NCBI GenBank assembly: GCA_937127165.1
Contig: CAKZLR010000032.1
Location: 1-46,565, forward strand
Reading direction: 5' to 3'
Source: an uncultured Candidatus Peregrinibacteria bacterium
Lineage (GTDB): Bacteria; Patescibacteriota; JACMRA01
DNA: 46,565 nt
The notes under the pieces were generated by a model. The model saw only the letters and a program-made list of their open reading frames with translations, searched no databases and had not been told where the DNA came from. The position numbers and the translations under genes were made by a program. Positions within the stretch are counted from its first letter, which is position 1. Each line of letters opens with the position of its first letter. Positions 1-41,856 of the stretch are shown here, in pieces.

Positions 1-372
1 TCCTGCCAATAGAGCCCCTGTCAAATTAGCTCCTGCCAATAGAGCCCCTGTCAAATTAGCTCCTGCCAATAGAGCCCCTGTCAAATTAGCTCCTGCCAAT
101 AGAGCCCTTCTCAAATTAGCTCCTATCAAATTAGCTCCTTCCAAATTAACCCTTCTCAAATCAGCTCCTGCCAATAGAGCCCTTCTCAAATTAGCTTCTG
201 TCAATAGAGCCTCTGTCAAATCAGCTCCTGCCAACAGAGCCCCTGTCAAATCAGCTCCTGCCAACAGAGCCCTTCTCAAATTAGCTCCTGCCAAATTAAC
301 CCTTCTCAAGTCAGCTCCTATCAAATCAGCTCTTTCCAAATTAACCCCTCTCAAATCAGCCCCAGCTAAAAC
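1..372. repeat. 15/30-bp periodic tandem repeat array (the coding pentapeptide repeats of paralog B)
   Basis: tcctgccaatagagcccctgtcaaattagc is repeated perfectly at 1-30, 31-60 and 61-90. A near-copy lies at 91-120, and degenerate 15-bp units continue to about 372. Confidence 0.9.
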
Positions 373-786
373 TAATCTTTGTGGTGATGGTTCTATTCCT
401 AATTCTTGTAATTCTTGTAATTCTTGTAATAAATTAGTCCATACCATATATTTGCCTTTATTTATTGCTCCTTTAATCATTATCATTATTAATGAATATA
501 ATAATTTTTCTGATTTTAGATCAGGGATTCTTTCTAGATCAGGGATTCTTTGCATGATAGCATAAAGTAGTGGGTAATTTGATTTTAAATATTTTTCAGA
601 ATCTGGTAGTTTCAAAGACTTCATTTCTTTTAAAATTTTCTCAGCTTTATCAATTATTGATGTTGCTGCATCTTTCACCGCTAATTTTATATCTGTAACG
701 TTACGTCTAACTTTTTCAGCACTTTCTGAGATAATGCCGCCTAGAAATTCATCAAACTTTTCGATCAATCCTTTCAATCTTTTCAT
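1..786 (-). CDS. Pentapeptide-repeat protein, paralog B, main body. The 3' end runs off the window, so it is absent from the ORF track.
   Basis: The minus-strand frame is open from ATG 786-784 to position 1 (262 codons). It translates MKRLKGLIEKFDEFLGGIISESAEKV...LQELQELQEL...LAGADLRGVNLERADL...(ANLTGALLAG)n, with A(D/N)LxX pentapeptide periodicity. It is collinear with ORF 2719..4170. Confidence 0.75.
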   Translation of the reverse strand, partial: MKRLKGLIEKFDEFLGGIISESAEKVRRNVTDIKLAVKDAATSIIDKAEKILKEMKSLKLPDSEKYLKSNYPLLYAIMQRIPDLERIPDLKSEKLLYSLIMIMIKGAINKGKYMVWTNLLQELQELQELGIEPSPQRLVLAGADLRGVNLERADLIGADLRRVNLAGANLRRALLAGADLTGALLAGADLTEALLTEANLRRALLAGADLRRVNLEGANLIGANLRRALLAGANLTGALLAGANLTGALLAGANLTGALLAG

Positions 787-794
787 TTTTTCTT

Positions 795-977
795 TTAATT
801 TTTTTTTTCTTCTAATTCTATTAAAGAAGCCGGATTCTCTTCTCCGGTTTCACCACGACCAGTCCCTACTTCTCCTTTTCTTCCTTCACCACCATAACCA
901 CCTTCAGGTGCCCAAAACTTTTTTGCAGAACCTACAGATAAATGAATGTTAGAAAGTGTAGATATAGATATAGACAC
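795..977 (-). CDS. N-terminal segment of pentapeptide-repeat paralog B, separated from its body (786..1) by a frame change at an A10 tract
   Basis: MSISISTLSNIHLSVGSAKKFWAPEGGYGGEGRK is almost identical to the N-terminus of ORF 2719..4170. The ORF stops one codon after the poly-A run (minus strand, 808-799). Confidence 0.55.
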   Translation of the reverse strand: MSISISTLSNIHLSVGSAKKFWAPEGGYGGEGRKGEVGTGRGETGEENPASLIELEEKKN

Positions 978-1155
978 AACGAATAATTGAGAACATTTAT
1001 TAAATGGATTAAATGATAACTCAAATAATTGAGTTAACTGAAACCAAACTTAATTATAACACACTTTTTATATTATCTGCAAATCTTTTTTGTCTCAAAG
1101 TTTCGGTGATTCTAAAGAATAGTTCTACAATTTAGAGTTTTTAAGTTTTTTTAAA

Positions 1156-2718: not shown

Positions 2719-4170
2719 CTATTCTGAATCTGATAGGGTTGGAGTAGGTTGTGGATCTGAAAAGATACAGCCCTCGTCCACGATAGCACCTCGACTTTTT
2801 AGGTAGTCTCGGGTTACTGGCTGCCTTTTTCCCTTTCTATTAATATAATAAGCTTCTCTGAAGTCACATCCTTTAAAATTAGCTCCTTTAACAATAGACA
2901 ATGTAAAATTAGCCCCTTCAAACTTAGTTCCTTCCAACCTAGCCCCTGTAAACCTAGCCCCTGTAAAATCAGCCTCTGTAAAATCAGCCCCTGTCAAATT
3001 AGCCCCTGTAAACCTAGCCCTTGTAAAATCAGCCAATGGCGAAATAGCCAATGTCAAATCAGCCAATGTAAAATCAGCTTCTCTAAAACTAGCTCCTGTC
3101 AAATTAGCCAATGTCAAATTAGCTCCAGCTAAAATTAATCCTACTCGTGATGACTCCATTAATAATCCTCGTAATAAATCAGTCCATACTATATTAGTCC
3201 ATACTATATTTCTGTTTTCATCCATTCTTTTTGTAATCATTACCGTCATTAATGGATGTAATGATCTTCTTGAGTTTGCACTATAGAGAGCATGGAATTC
3301 GAACCTGAGAGCATAAAGTAGTGGGTAAAATTTTAATTTTAATTCTGGGTAAAATTCTAAACAAGTCATTAAATATTCTTTATATTTTTCAAAATCTGAT
3401 AGTCCCCAAGACTTAATTCCTTTTATAGTTTCCTCAGCTTTATCAACCACTAATCTTGTTGCTTCTTTCACCACTATTGGCATATATGCCCCATTTATAA
3501 CTCTTTTAGCACTTTCCGAGATAAGATTTTCTAGAAATTTATCAAACTCTCTGATCAAAAAAATACGCTTCTCGTTCACGACGTCCACGGTAGCATCTCG
3601 ACTCTCTAACCAGGCTGGGGTCATTGGGTGTATTTCTCCCTTTGTAGTATTTGCAGTAATTGCTCTTTCAATCGTTGTCATTATTAATGAATGTAATAAT
3701 TCTTCTAATTTTACGTCAGAGATTCTTCGGTTGATAACATAAAGTAGTGGGGAATTTGATTTTAAATATTCTTCAAAATCTGGTAGTTCCAAAGACTTTA
3801 TTCCTTTTATAATTTCCCTAGCTTTATCAATTATTAATCTTGTTACATTTTCCACTACTGATTCTATAGTATTTAGGCCATTTTCAACTTCTCTAGCACT
3901 TGTCAAGATAATCTCGTTTAGAAATTCATTAAACCCTTTGGTTAATTCATACATTTCTCTTTTCTTTTCAGCTTCCGCTTGTGTATGCTTAGCTTTCGCT
4001 TGTGTGTGTGCTTCTAAATTCGGAGAGAATTTACCTCCTGGAGAGGTCGGATCCTCAGGATACATTCTTTCTTCTTTTCTTCCTTCACCACCATAACCAC
4101 CTTCAGGTGCCCAAAACTTTTTTGCAGAACTTACAGATAAATGAATGTTAGAAAGTGTAGACATAGACAC
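2719..4170 (-). CDS. Pentapeptide-repeat protein, paralog A (Gly-rich N-terminus, two copies of a helical module, C-terminal pentapeptide repeats)
   Basis: The C-terminal region reads ANLTLANLTGASFREADFTLADLT...ARFTGANLTGADFTEADFTGARFTGARLEGTKFEGANF. The module F(N/D)xFLxxxIxxSAxxV...DKAxExIKGIKSxxLxDFExY occurs twice internally. Confidence 0.85.
   Translation of the reverse strand: MSMSTLSNIHLSVSSAKKFWAPEGGYGGEGRKEERMYPEDPTSPGGKFSPNLEAHTQAKAKHTQAEAEKKREMYELTKGFNEFLNEIILTSAREVENGLNTIESVVENVTRLIIDKAREIIKGIKSLELPDFEEYLKSNSPLLYVINRRISDVKLEELLHSLIMTTIERAITANTTKGEIHPMTPAWLESRDATVDVVNEKRIFLIREFDKFLENLISESAKRVINGAYMPIVVKEATRLVVDKAEETIKGIKSWGLSDFEKYKEYLMTCLEFYPELKLKFYPLLYALRFEFHALYSANSRRSLHPLMTVMITKRMDENRNIVWTNIVWTDLLRGLLMESSRVGLILAGANLTLANLTGASFREADFTLADLTLAISPLADFTRARFTGANLTGADFTEADFTGARFTGARLEGTKFEGANFTLSIVKGANFKGCDFREAYYINRKGKRQPVTRDYLKSRGAIVDEGCIFSDPQPTPTLSDSE
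2860..3140. repeat. 15-bp periodic coding repeats (the pentapeptide region of paralog A)
   Basis: There are repeated units such as agcccctgtaaacct / agcccctgtaaaatc / agccaatgtcaaatc. They are more diverged than the array at 1-372. Confidence 0.8.
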
Positions 4171-5385: not shown

Positions 5386-6393
5386 TTAGATTATTTCGTG
5401 CAGTCTGTTTTGTTCTATAGAAGTTTTAATTTCTCTAGCGATTCGCCTACCGGTACTCATTGGCACATCAAAAATTAAATCGGAGTAAGGTGATCCATTG
5501 ATAAATAAGTTAGTACCAGCGACGATTCTAGCCGATATTTCAATTACATAGAATTTTTGATCTGGGGTGACAATGGTTTCAAGACAAAAAGGCCCATATA
5601 GACCTCTGGTTGGACAAATTTCTTTGGAGATTTTAACTACATTTCTACCCATTTCGTATAGATCCGCTAGTAATGACTCCCGAACAACTAGTGGGCTGTT
5701 ACCAATTACTACAAAAGAAGGATCCATCTGTAGGTGCATCTGGGTAGATGCAGTCAACCTGCCAATCCCATCAACATTGGTTTCGTATCTTCTATCCAAA
5801 CTTAAAATCTCTAAACGATCTTGTAAAAGTGAGTAAAAATAATGAATATAAATAGGACAGCCTATGATATACTCCTGAATCAGGATTTTATTTAGATCAA
5901 ATTGTCTTGTTTTCATTTCTTGTTCAAACTCTTCCCTAGACGACACAAAAAAATAGCCACTACCTCCTCCAGCTCCATACATCTTAACTATGACTGGACG
6001 GTCAATTTGGGTATAATCATCAAAAATTTTGGGCAAAGTCAAACCAGCTCTACTTAGCCAATCCATTTGTTTTTGACGGTTGCTTTCCCACTTAAGAATA
6101 TCTTTATTACCAAAATATTTAACCTTCATCTGGTCATGTTTTTGTTGATCGATGTAGGCTACCAGGGAACCATGTGGCACAATAATAGCCTCTTGCTTAA
6201 GCAAATAATCTTCTACCTTAAAAAAATCGTGGTAGCTATCCAAAGTAATTACTTCATCAGCAATTGGAAACAGTTCGGTATAAATTTTGGCTTGTTTTTT
6301 GGTAGAAATGAGAATAGTTTGAAAACCTTCGTCCTTAGCTCCTTTAACAATCTGTAGGGCACTGTGACTACCAATTGTGGCAATTTTAGGCAT
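5386..6393 (-). CDS. purP: 5-formaminoimidazole-4-carboxamide ribonucleotide (FAICAR) synthetase, archaeal-type ATP-grasp PurP
   Basis: MPKIATIGSHSALQIVKGAKDEGF, DRRYETNVDG, GPFCLE, EISARIVAGTN and STGRRIAREIK match my recollection of the Methanocaldococcus PurP family. The longest ORF extends to 6453, but the homologous N-terminus begins at the ATG at 6393. Confidence 0.8.
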   Translation of the reverse strand: MPKIATIGSHSALQIVKGAKDEGFQTILISTKKQAKIYTELFPIADEVITLDSYHDFFKVEDYLLKQEAIIVPHGSLVAYIDQQKHDQMKVKYFGNKDILKWESNRQKQMDWLSRAGLTLPKIFDDYTQIDRPVIVKMYGAGGGSGYFFVSSREEFEQEMKTRQFDLNKILIQEYIIGCPIYIHYFYSLLQDRLEILSLDRRYETNVDGIGRLTASTQMHLQMDPSFVVIGNSPLVVRESLLADLYEMGRNVVKISKEICPTRGLYGPFCLETIVTPDQKFYVIEISARIVAGTNLFINGSPYSDLIFDVPMSTGRRIAREIKTSIEQNRLHEII

Positions 6394-6539
6394 ATAAGAC
6401 TTATTTAGTGAATACTTGTTGAATGTCAAACAGTTGAGTGGTAGTGGTTGCATAAAATCAGGCTTAAATTAAGCAAAAGTAACAGTGTTTTCTAGAGTTA
6501 TTTTATAGGACTTGACTTATCTATGTTTTTAAGTAGCAT

Positions 6540-14191: not shown

Positions 14192-14311
14192 TATGAAAAA
14201 ATAGTAATAATTAATAAATTAATAAAAAATAAAAATAATAAAAAATAAAAATATAAAAATTAATGAAAAAATAATAAAAATTAATAAAATGATAAAAAAT
14301 TAAAAATTGAG
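14192..14311. other. C-free A/T block with AATAAAAA-type repeats, a candidate DNA unwinding element
   Basis: By direct count, 120 nt on the + strand contain no C and only six G. The block sits between divergent genes about 670 nt upstream of dnaA. Confidence 0.3.
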
Positions 14312-29584: not shown

Positions 29585-29922
29585 TTAAATTATATAAATT
29601 AAATTATATTATAAGTTATAAGGTCAAAAAAGTCGGTTGTATATATACACAATAATTTAGAGAAGATTAGAGAAGATTTACGAAGTTTCTGAAATACTCA
29701 ATTTAAATAGTCATGTTAGGTGTTATTACATAAATTTTAGATTAACCGATCTTATATTTCCTGTATTTATAGATATTGTTTTTTGTGCAGATTTAATATA
29801 ACTACTTTTCCTATATAATAGATGATAGAACAAGGATCATAGTTTTGTGGAATAAGATTAAAAATGAGTCTTGACATAAAACATTGCTTGTAGTTTTTTT
29901 GTACAAAATTTTATTTTCATAA

Positions 29923-38581: not shown

Positions 38582-38722
38582 TTTGATTTATTTATTTATA
38601 AATAAACTTTCTTGACACAAATAAAAAAAAACGGTTTTTGTGAAGACTAGGTTTTATCAGTCGTACAATTTCTCGGTAAGTTACCGAATTTTTAATGTTT
38701 TTCAAGTTTATTATAAATTTTT

Positions 38723-41648: not shown

Positions 41649-41856
41649 GTTTTATTCTATAATTTTATTCTATAAATGATTAAAGCAAATTTATAAACAT
41701 TCAGTTATTTTGTTTTTTGTTTCACTCTTAACAAGGTTTTGATGATAATCACTTTTTAATTATTTAATCTAAATAACTAATTTTATAGATTTTACGAGTT
41801 GTTCAATTTTTAACTGTTAAGTACTCTTATAATTTTATTTATAATTCTATATATTT

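What the first reader, a model, noticed from the sequence alone, without database searches (positions are those of the whole stretch)
784..977. Pentapeptide-repeat paralog B is split at an A10 tract lying on an A_AAA_AAA slippery heptamer
ORF 795..977 (-) encodes the same N-terminus as the intact paralog 2719..4170 (MS..STLSNIHLSV.SAKKFWAPEGGYGGEGRK). It stops at 797-795, one codon after a run of ten A (minus strand, 808-799). The rest of the gene (786..1) is homologous to the paralog from about residue 75 onward and lies in the -1 frame. That frame is already open across the run (..RIRRKKKLKEKMKRL..). In the upstream frame the run reads ga[A AAA AAA] aat taa, which is an X_XXY_YYZ heptamer next to the stop. 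Three events would each yield ...IELEEKKKLKEKMKRLKGLIEKFDEFL..., a full-length protein collinear with the paralog: a -1 ribosomal slip, one extra A added by transcriptional slippage (known for runs of 9 or more A/T in AT-rich reduced genomes), or an A11 allele from slipped-strand mispairing. At the same place the intact paralog has an interrupted run (aaaagaaaagagaaatg). This therefore looks like an on/off or ratio-setting switch rather than random decay. A homopolymer sequencing error is the trivial alternative.
Basis: partly seen in the sequence, partly recalled or inferred. Interest (0 to 1): 0.7.

Follow-up and report, generated by a model that had tools for sequence, protein, structure and literature searches.

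The report
Pentapeptide-repeat gene split at variable poly(A) run
A gene for a repeat protein in an uncultured AT-rich bacterium is really broken at a run of A's whose length differs between near-identical populations (9 or 10, never in frame), which looks like an ordinary slippage mutation in a fast-changing gene family, not a programmed recoding signal.

Summary
The minus strand carries A10 at 808-799. A 60-codon leader ORF (977..795) stops one codon after the run. The body of the gene continues in the -1 frame to the window edge.

The run is the only indel in 14,148 bases between the window and a 99.95 %-identical metagenome contig. Three independent assemblies carry A9 and the window carries A10. 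Both lengths are out of frame, so this is not an intact gene hidden by a sequencing error.

With A9, a -1 ribosomal slip meets a stop after one codon. No stimulatory RNA structure follows the run. Programmed -1 frameshifting is therefore not supported.

The 426-codon body is intact. It has its own ATG (786-784) 8 nt after the leader's stop, in the A-rich context that this genome, which shows no Shine-Dalgarno motifs, has at all its starts. Genes here otherwise avoid A runs longer than 8.

The likeliest history is an in-frame A8 that expanded to A9 and then A10 by replication slippage. That uncoupled the leader from a body that may still be translated on its own. A DNA-level on/off switch or rescue by RNA polymerase slippage remains possible but untested.

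The family is an orphan and varies between strains (mosaic allele, nonsense allele, conserved ends).

The parts
799..808 (-). Poly(A) tract. It is A10 in the window and A9 in three related metagenome assemblies. It is the site of the frame break.
   Evidence: It is the longest homopolymer in the window and the only indel in 14,148 aligned bases against L001.
795..977 (-). Leader ORF of 60 aa: GTG start, ...IELEEKKN, TAA at 797-795. The first ~34 codons are nearly identical to the N-terminus of paralog A. With A9 the ORF is 74 aa and ends at a TGA.
   Evidence: It has no Pfam or NCBIfam match.
801..807 (-). A_AAA_AAA heptamer in the leader's frame (window allele).
   Evidence: No stimulatory structure lies downstream.
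1..786 (-). Body ORF of paralog B, starting at ATG 786-784 (MKRLKGLIEKFDEFL...). It has a helical domain followed by a pentapeptide-repeat array. It is cut by the window edge and is 426 codons in L003.
   Evidence: The chance of a 426-codon open frame is about 3e-19. Gene callers start it at this ATG in three assemblies.
870..1118 (-). Duplicated 5' module shared with paralog A (4310-4069), 91 % identical. It contains a fossil of the 3' end of the glycosyltransferase gene, a promoter-like site (1098-1070), a hairpin (AACTCAA..TTGAGTT) and the first ~36 leader codons.
830..847 (-). Small GC-rich hairpin CCGGAGAAGAGAATCCGG, 21 nt upstream of the run. Its significance is unknown.
   Evidence: one terminator-like site found against 0.2 expected.
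2719..4170 (-). Intact paralog A (483 aa). The leader, a linker, two copies of the helical domain, pentapeptide repeats and a C-terminal tail lie in one frame.

Best explanation
Paralog B is a real split gene produced by replication slippage at an unstable poly(A) tract. It is not a programmed recoding site.

The ancestral gene, like paralog A, most likely read leader-linker-helical domain-repeats in one frame, with an in-frame A8 (..EEKKLKEK..). The tract expanded to A9, the allele in three metagenome populations, and then to A10 in this window. That put the 57-codon leader out of frame with the 426-codon body.

The body keeps an ATG (786-784) 8 nt after the leader's stop. Its upstream context is extremely A-rich and lacks a Shine-Dalgarno motif, which is the kind of context seen at every start in this genome. 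The expected main product is therefore a leaderless 426-aa pentapeptide-repeat protein, made by independent initiation or by termination-reinitiation. RNA polymerase slippage would add at most a minor full-length fraction.

Shown: the split, the tract polymorphism, the intact body, the start context, and the avoidance of long runs in coding sequence. Inferred: the A8 ancestor, use of ATG 786, and the absence of selection for the tract.
For: 1. The A run is the only indel in 14,148 bases against L001, alongside 6 SNPs. It is A9 in L001, L003 and L004 (two JGI samples and one ENA sample) and A10 only in the window. Neither length is in frame.
2. All other indels between the window and the related assemblies lie in intergenic AT-rich sequence. 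They include an intergenic A9 that is A8 in one assembly. The tract therefore behaves like unconstrained sequence.
3. None of 34 ORFs has a GGAG, GAGG or AGGA motif upstream. Their leaders are 79 % A+T. ATG 786 has 85 % A in positions -20 to -1. Gene callers chose this ATG in three assemblies.
4. The body ORF is intact over 426 codons in L003 (chance about 3e-19).
5. All 5 KKK motifs in the 34 ORFs are interrupted by AAG, although AAA:AAG is 748:144 overall. The longest coding-strand A run is 8. Runs of 10 or more number 1 against about 5.9 expected. A8 is therefore within the coding norm, and A9-A11 are not.
6. B's leader has also lost the ATG used by A and A' (ATG to ATA). Only the GTG remains.
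7. The family is clearly under relaxed or diversifying pressure. One population has a nonsense allele of A, another has a mosaic allele, and inter-assembly differences concentrate in A and B.
Against: - The populations compared differ by only about 0.1 %. The intact body and the absence of further lesions therefore say little about selection.
- Use of ATG 786 is inferred from context only.
- In paralogs A and A' the leader is fused in frame over 72 codons (chance of such an open frame about 0.0007). The leader is therefore probably functional, and losing it may matter.
- An uninterrupted A9/A10 tract in a genome that otherwise purges long runs could equally be a tract kept by selection as a switch.
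- +1 insertions are the commonest RNA polymerase error in A runs (PMC5574713), so the A10 allele could give a non-trivial fused fraction.
Confidence: 0.5

Rival explanations
1. Phase-variable (contingency) locus. Slipped-strand mispairing changes the tract length reversibly. A8 or A11 gives the leader-bearing full-length protein (ON). A9 or A10 gives the leaderless product or none (OFF). Selection keeps the tract long so that the population hedges its bets.
For: - Tract length differs between populations that are otherwise 99.9 % identical.
- The tract lies in the 5' part of the gene and is uninterrupted, in a genome that interrupts all other KKK motifs and is depleted of long runs.
- The gene family varies between strains and has conserved ends, as many contingency gene families do.
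- Known contingency loci behave this way (PMC5084427, PMC3025981).
Against: - Only OFF lengths were seen in four assemblies.
- Three assemblies from different samples share the same A9, which argues against very fast switching.
- An intergenic A9 run varies in the same way, so the polymorphism needs no selection.
- Nothing shows that the protein is a surface or interaction molecule that would benefit from switching.
Confidence: 0.2
2. Recoding by transcriptional slippage. RNA polymerase stutters on the A9/A10 template and adds (or removes) A's. A fixed fraction of mRNAs then encodes the fused full-length protein, and leader-only, leaderless and full-length products are made in a set ratio.
For: - The run is 9 or more A's, the length at which bacterial polymerases slip (PMC5009743).
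- +1 insertions dominate in A/T runs (PMC5574713), and +1 is exactly what A10 needs.
- Precedents exist. Citrobacter tssM1 has A11 before a stop and frameshifts at 20-25 % (PMC4256274). Blochmannia and Buchnera have frameshifted genes at poly(A) tracts (PMC3017870).
- The split is present in all four assemblies and the body is intact.
Against: - The A9 allele, found in three of four assemblies, needs -1 or +2, which are less frequent events.
- The frame relation is not conserved between alleles, unlike tssM1 or the endosymbiont cases.
- No RNA data are available.
- The timescale is too short to show that the frameshift is maintained.
- The hairpin at 847-830 is 21 nt from the run, too far to act as a slippage stimulator of the terminator-like kind (own knowledge).
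Confidence: 0.12
3. Young pseudogene. The frameshift inactivated B. Neither the leader nor the body gives a useful product, and the ORF is intact only because too little time has passed.
For: - Two successive out-of-frame lengths occur.
- The leader's ATG is lost.
- Paralog A carries a nonsense allele in one population, which shows that the family is dispensable there.
- It is an orphan family with no relatives among 5.8 and 1.84 billion proteins.
Against: - The 426-codon body has no lesion in any assembly.
- It keeps a start codon in a favourable context.
- It keeps a promoter-like site and a terminator module.
Confidence: 0.13
4. Programmed -1 ribosomal frameshift on A_AAA_AAA next to the stop.
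For: The heptamer is present in the leader's frame in the window allele, with a stop one codon later.
Against: - With A9 (three assemblies) a -1 slip reads AAT TAA and stops, and the body is then in +1/-2 (and direct reading).
- No downstream structure: z-scores are -1.0 and +0.46, and the first helix begins about 30 nt after the heptamer.
- No Shine-Dalgarno motifs were seen at any of 34 starts.
- A_AAA_AAA is much less shift-prone than A_AAA_AAG (PMC5009743).
Confidence: 0.02
5. Homopolymer miscall. The true length is in frame and the gene is simply intact.
For: Only that the window's A10 is unique among the four assemblies.
Against: - Three independent assemblies give A9, which is also out of frame.
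- The window shows no other homopolymer discrepancy in 46 kb against the other assemblies, apart from one run where another assembly (L029) is the odd one out.
Confidence: 0.03

Closest known systems
Frameshifted genes at poly(A) tracts in AT-rich endosymbionts (Buchnera, Blochmannia), described as rescued by transcriptional slippage (PMC3017870; PMC5009743)
   Same: An AT-rich genome. A single-base indel inside a run of 9 or more A's splits an otherwise intact ORF. Polymerase slippage could restore the frame.
   Different: In those cases the frameshift is conserved between populations and species, in essential genes. Here two different out-of-frame lengths occur in a dispensable orphan paralog. 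This genome is depleted of long coding runs rather than rich in them. The body also has its own start codon just after the stop.
Citrobacter rodentium tssM1: A11 before a premature stop, 20-25 % transcriptional frameshifting, both products needed (PMC4256274)
   Same: A poly(A) run lies just upstream of a stop, and the rest of the protein lies in another frame.
   Different: In tssM1 the run length and frame relation are fixed and the function has been shown. Here the length varies (A9/A10), the break is near the N-terminus rather than before a C-terminal domain, and nothing has been tested experimentally.
Simple-sequence contingency loci of Neisseria, Haemophilus and Campylobacter (PMC5084427; PMC3025981)
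   Same: A homopolymer in the 5' coding region, length polymorphism between near-identical genomes, and a variable gene family.
   Different: No ON allele was observed. The tract is poly(A), not the poly(G/C) typical of Campylobacter and many Neisseria loci (own knowledge). There is no evidence of tract over-representation or of a surface-exposed product.
E. coli dnaX -1 programmed frameshift (A_AAA_AAG with an upstream Shine-Dalgarno-like element and a downstream stem-loop; PMC5009743)
   Same: An all-A/Lys slippery heptamer followed closely by a stop.
   Different: There is no stimulator on either side. The heptamer is A_AAA_AAA, and the required frame shift is not conserved between alleles.

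Membership tests
Programmed -1 ribosomal frameshift site | X_XXY_YYZ heptamer in the zero frame | tested here: met
   A_AAA_AAA lies at 807-801 in the leader's frame in the window allele.
Programmed -1 ribosomal frameshift site | Stimulatory element: a downstream stem-loop or pseudoknot 5-9 nt away, or an upstream Shine-Dalgarno-like sequence | tested here: not met
   Folds of 812-700 and 798-730 do not differ from shuffles (z -1.0 and +0.46), and the first helix starts about 30 nt downstream. No Shine-Dalgarno-like motif was seen at any of 34 starts.
Programmed -1 ribosomal frameshift site | The site and the frame relation are conserved in relatives | tested here: not met
   Three assemblies have A9. 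The body is then in +1/-2, and a -1 slip terminates at once.
Transcriptional-slippage recoding site | Uninterrupted A or T run of about 9 or more | tested here: met
   A10 in the window and A9 in L001, L003 and L004.
Transcriptional-slippage recoding site | The frame is restored by the common slippage product (+1) | tested here: inconclusive
   Met for A10 (+1 gives A11). Not met for A9, which needs -1 or +2 (direct reading; PMC5574713).
Transcriptional-slippage recoding site | The frameshifted arrangement is maintained over evolutionary time with no decay of the downstream ORF | tested here: inconclusive
   The split and the intact body are present in all four assemblies, but these differ by only about 0.1 %. 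No more distant relatives exist in the databases searched.
Transcriptional-slippage recoding site | mRNA run length is heterogeneous relative to DNA | not testable with these tools
   No RNA data.
Phase-variable contingency locus (simple-sequence repeat) | A hypermutable repeat within or upstream of the reading frame | tested here: met
   The A9/A10 tract lies between the leader and the body.
Phase-variable contingency locus (simple-sequence repeat) | Tract length is polymorphic among very close relatives | tested here: met
   It is the only indel in 14,148 bases against L001, and A9 versus A10 across four assemblies. An intergenic A9 varies as well.
Phase-variable contingency locus (simple-sequence repeat) | Both ON (in-frame) and OFF lengths occur in populations | tested here: not met
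   Only out-of-frame lengths occur in four consensus assemblies. Subpopulations within samples could not be examined.
Pentapeptide repeat protein (PF00805) | Tandem A(D/N)LXX pentapeptides that match the Pfam model above its cut-off | tested here: met
   B scores 137.6 bits and A 88.5 bits, against a cut-off of 20.2. The tandem array has 15/30-nt periods.
Pseudogene | Disrupted reading frame plus further disabling lesions | tested here: inconclusive
   There is a frameshift and loss of the leader's ATG, but no lesion in the 426-codon body. Divergence is too low to judge constraint.

The most novel reading that the evidence does not exclude
The A tract is a selected switch in a strain-variable, lineage-specific 'cassette' family of pentapeptide-repeat proteins. 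The family has conserved promoter/leader and tail/terminator modules and recombining middles. Tract length, at the DNA level and/or through polymerase stuttering, sets the ratio of leader-bearing to leaderless protein in an uncultured bacterium that shows no Shine-Dalgarno motifs. That would be a contingency system outside the host-associated pathogens where such systems are known.
Probability: 0.15. Interest if true: 0.55.

Novelty: new member of a known kind. Interest (0 to 1): 0.3.

Why it matters
For annotation, this is a true split gene and should not be 'repaired' as a sequencing error. It should not be labelled a programmed -1 frameshift either.

It also gives a small, clean example of a poly(A) tract that is the fastest-changing site in a 14-kb region of an uncultured bacterium. 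That genome otherwise purges long runs from its genes.

If the tract proved to be a selected switch, it would extend contingency-locus or slippage-based expression control to an environmental lineage and to an orphan pentapeptide-repeat family whose ends are conserved while its middle recombines. On present evidence that is a minority possibility.

Tried and rejected
1. Relatives of the non-repeat domain.
   - A word-indexed search of 5.8 billion proteins found only P0001, a fragment of paralog A from the same organism.
   - An exhaustive HMMER profile search of 1.84 billion representatives found the same single hit.
   - Protein-pattern scans of genome contigs and metagenome contigs found nothing.
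   - A DNA pattern spanning the run with a variable gap found nothing in metagenome contigs.
   - No cross-species comparison of the site was therefore possible.
2. Exact-product look-ups.
   - The window's paralog A and the 60-aa leader are not on record.
3. Identity of the organism.
   - DnaA, RNase Y, MurJ and topoisomerase I show that it is a bacterium.
   - The nearest TrpE sequences in GTDB representatives are only 51-56 % identical. They are MAGs labelled Leptospiraceae, Patescibacteria and others. None of those loci has a family member. The lineage stays unresolved.
The window encodes tryptophan and purine synthesis genes.
   - Sample and accession numbers were not found in the literature library.
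4. Rfam. Nothing besides three tRNAs in the window, and nothing at E up to 1 in 700-1200. The conserved 5' module is not a known RNA family, and its fold is not better than shuffles (z -1.3).
5. An early idea that the organism is an archaeon, based on a PurP-type gene, was dropped.
6. Structure of paralog A from the single sequence. Confidence was low (mean pLDDT 54.6). It was used only as a weak hint that residues 1-49 are disordered and that a long helix spans the site equivalent to the run. No fold search was run on it.
7. Promoter-like sites are no more frequent than in shuffles, so they are treated as leads only.

Full report
WHAT IS IN THE SEQUENCE

On the minus strand the window reads ...tta gaa gaa aaa aaa aat TAA aag aaa aaA TGa aaa gat tg....
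- The run of ten A's occupies 808-799. It is the longest homopolymer in the 46.5-kb window, which is 32.5 % G+C.
- ORF 977..795 (GTG start, 60 aa) ends at TAA 797-795, one codon after the run.
- The -1 frame is open from about 848 to position 1 and reads ...NRIRRKKKLKEKMKRLKGLIEKFDEFL... followed by pentapeptide repeats (PF00805, 137.6 bits).
- This body is homologous to the intact paralog A (4170..2719, 483 aa). Identity is 36 % overall and 46-48 % over the helical domain.
- A11 or A8 would join the leader and the body in one frame.

Four details need amending.
1. The body's ATG is at 786-784.
2. The gene is cut by the window edge.
3. An A10 run is not itself above chance. A first-order Markov model expects about 5.9 A/T runs of 10 or more, and one is seen.
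4. Paralog A's 'aaaagaaaagagaaatg' aligns with the stretch just after the run, not with the run.

RELATED SEQUENCES

The non-repeat domain is an orphan. Only one hit came back from 5.8 billion proteins and from 1.84 billion representatives searched exhaustively. That hit, P0001, is a fragment of paralog A from a JGI metagenome contig that is syntenic with the window.

Over 14,148 aligned bases that contig (L001) differs from the window by six substitutions and exactly one indel. The indel is the A run, which is A9 instead of A10.

Exact-product look-ups of the neighbouring TrpE gene returned two more assemblies: L003 (ENA ERZ27245459) and L004 (JGI 3300025104). Both are at least 99.9 % identical to the window and both have A9.

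With A9 the leader ORF is 74 aa and stops at a TGA 35 nt past the ATG. L003 carries the whole body. It is 426 codons with no lesion, and its tail and 3' flank are 93 % identical to those of paralog A.

The gene is therefore split in all four assemblies, by two different out-of-frame lengths. This excludes 'intact gene plus a miscalled homopolymer'. The window shows no general homopolymer problem. In about 46 kb compared with seven further contigs, every other indel is intergenic. The only other homopolymer difference is an intergenic A9 (38623-38631) that is A8 in one other assembly.

WHAT THIS MEANS FOR THE THREE PROPOSED MECHANISMS

*Programmed -1 ribosomal frameshifting.* In the A9 allele the body lies in the +1/-2 frame, and a -1 slip reads AAT TAA and terminates. 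The frame relation that a programmed site needs is not conserved. No RNA structure follows the heptamer (z -1.0 and +0.46). No Shine-Dalgarno motifs that could act as an upstream stimulator were seen. A_AAA_AAA is also a weak shift site compared with A_AAA_AAG (PMC5009743). This reading is rejected.

*Transcriptional slippage.* Runs of 9 or more A's do make bacterial RNA polymerase add bases (PMC5009743). +1 insertions dominate in A/T runs (PMC5574713). A10 needs +1, whereas A9 needs -1 or +2. Precedents are tssM1 of Citrobacter (A11, 20-25 %; PMC4256274) and frameshifted genes of Blochmannia and Buchnera (PMC3017870). Some fused mRNA is likely on physical grounds. Nothing here shows that it is used.

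*DNA-level phase variation.* The tract is clearly unstable, but only OFF lengths are seen. Three samples share A9, and an intergenic run varies in the same way.

GENOME CONTEXT

The organism is a bacterium, with DnaA, RNase Y, MurJ and topoisomerase I. Its nearest TrpE in GTDB representatives is only about 55 % identical.
- None of 34 ORFs has a GGAG, GAGG or AGGA motif upstream, and their leaders are 79 % A+T. This resembles bacteria that initiate without Shine-Dalgarno pairing (PMC6847099).
- ATG 786 is preceded by aaaaaaaattaaaagaaaaa (85 % A) and lies 8 nt after the leader's stop in the A10 allele. Gene callers start the body there in three assemblies. A leaderless 426-aa product is therefore a realistic default.
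- Coding sequences here avoid long runs. The longest coding-strand A run in 34 ORFs is 8. All five KKK motifs contain an AAG, although AAA outnumbers AAG 748:144.
- An in-frame A8 (GAA GAA AAA AAA TTA, EEKKL) lies within that norm, whereas A11 does not. The most economical history is A8 to A9 (shared by three populations) to A10 (window).
- B's leader has also lost the ATG that A and A' use (ATG to ATA) and gained a 6-nt duplication. Only the GTG is left.

THE FAMILY

A and B share near-identical ends and diverged middles.
- The shared 5' end is 249 nt at 91 % identity. It includes a fossil of the upstream glycosyltransferase gene's 3' end and a promoter-like site.
- The shared 3' end is 212 nt at 93 % identity and includes a terminator.
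- In one sample the gene in the A slot is a mosaic allele. It is A-like at first and B-like further on, with the leader in frame.
- In another sample A carries a nonsense codon.
- Differences between assemblies in the first 14 kb fall mostly in A and B, and TrpE between them has none.

The family is dispensable or diversifying, and it recombines. In A the leader and linker stay open over 72 codons (chance about 0.0007), and in A' the leader is also fused in frame. The leader is therefore probably a real part of the protein, which is why a switch cannot be dismissed. A low-confidence model of A suggests that residues 1-49 are disordered and that a helix spans the site equivalent to the run.

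VERDICT

- The split is real and sits on a mutable tract.
- It is not a programmed -1 site.
- There is no positive evidence that it is a selected switch.

The best explanation (confidence about 0.5) is a replication-slippage frameshift in a fast-evolving orphan paralog whose body can still be translated from its own ATG. The rivals are phase variation (0.2), a dead young pseudogene (0.13), functional transcriptional slippage (0.12), a miscall (0.03) and -1 frameshifting (0.02). It is a new member of a known kind, and interest is modest (0.3).

Noticed in passing
window 1118-870 vs 4310-4069; L003 3443-3654 vs window 2869-2659: Paralogs A and B share near-identical 5' (249 nt, 91 %) and 3' (212 nt, 93 %) modules, while their middles are only about 36 % identical at the protein level. 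B's upstream module contains a fossil of the last ~16 codons of the glycosyltransferase gene that precedes A. This shows duplication or gene conversion from the A locus.
   Followed up: partly
L022 7192-7896 (ENA ERZ27245459, k141_84880), equivalent to window ~4170-3659: In a genome background that is otherwise 99.9 % identical, the gene in the 'A slot' is a mosaic allele. It is A-like at first and B-like further on, with a short repeat region. 80 of 81 differences in 7.7 kb fall in this gene.
   Followed up: partly
window 3406-3408 (L001 10758): Paralog A carries a nonsense mutation (TGG to TAG, Trp255) in JGI sample 3300010288. It is intact in the window and in sample 3300025104.
   Followed up: yes
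window 38623-38631; 29597-29601; 14208-14220; 41832-41852: All other indels between the window and related assemblies are intergenic. They comprise an A9 that is A8 in L029, a 13-nt AT-rich insertion in L024, and small A/T indels. They serve as controls for homopolymer instability.
   Followed up: yes
whole window (34 ORFs): No Shine-Dalgarno-like motif lies upstream of any of 34 ORF starts, and the leaders are 79 % A+T. Long homopolymers are depleted (1 run of 10 or more against ~5.9 expected). Every KKK motif is interrupted by AAG despite 84 % AAA usage.
   Followed up: yes
window 5386-6453 (-): A PurP-type gene (DUF1246 + DUF1297, ATP-grasp), which I know mainly from archaea (own knowledge), sits in a genome with bacterial DnaA, RNase Y, MurJ and topoisomerase I. 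The lineage has no close relative among GTDB species representatives (TrpE at most 56 % identical).
   Followed up: no
window 847-830 (-): A GC-rich hairpin, CCGGAGAAGAGAATCCGG followed by CTTCTTTAAT, lies inside the leader ORF 21 nt upstream of the A run. It looks like a terminator (1 site found against 0.2 expected). Its role is unknown.
   Followed up: no
window 977-960 vs 4170-4159: B's leader reads GTG TCT ATA TCT ATA TCT, whereas A and A' read GTG TCT ATG TCT. The ATG that gene callers use for A is ATA in B, and there is a 6-nt TCTATA duplication.
   Followed up: partly
window 3993-3631 and 3588-3166 (-): Paralog A contains two tandem copies of the family-specific helical domain. B and the mosaic allele contain one.
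   Followed up: partly
window 1-360 (-); L003 2739-3432: B's pentapeptide array is built of near-identical 30-nt units (about 22 copies, with a higher-order 195-nt period). The window edge and several metagenome contig ends fall inside it or inside the shared A/B modules, probably because assemblies break at repeats.
   Followed up: no
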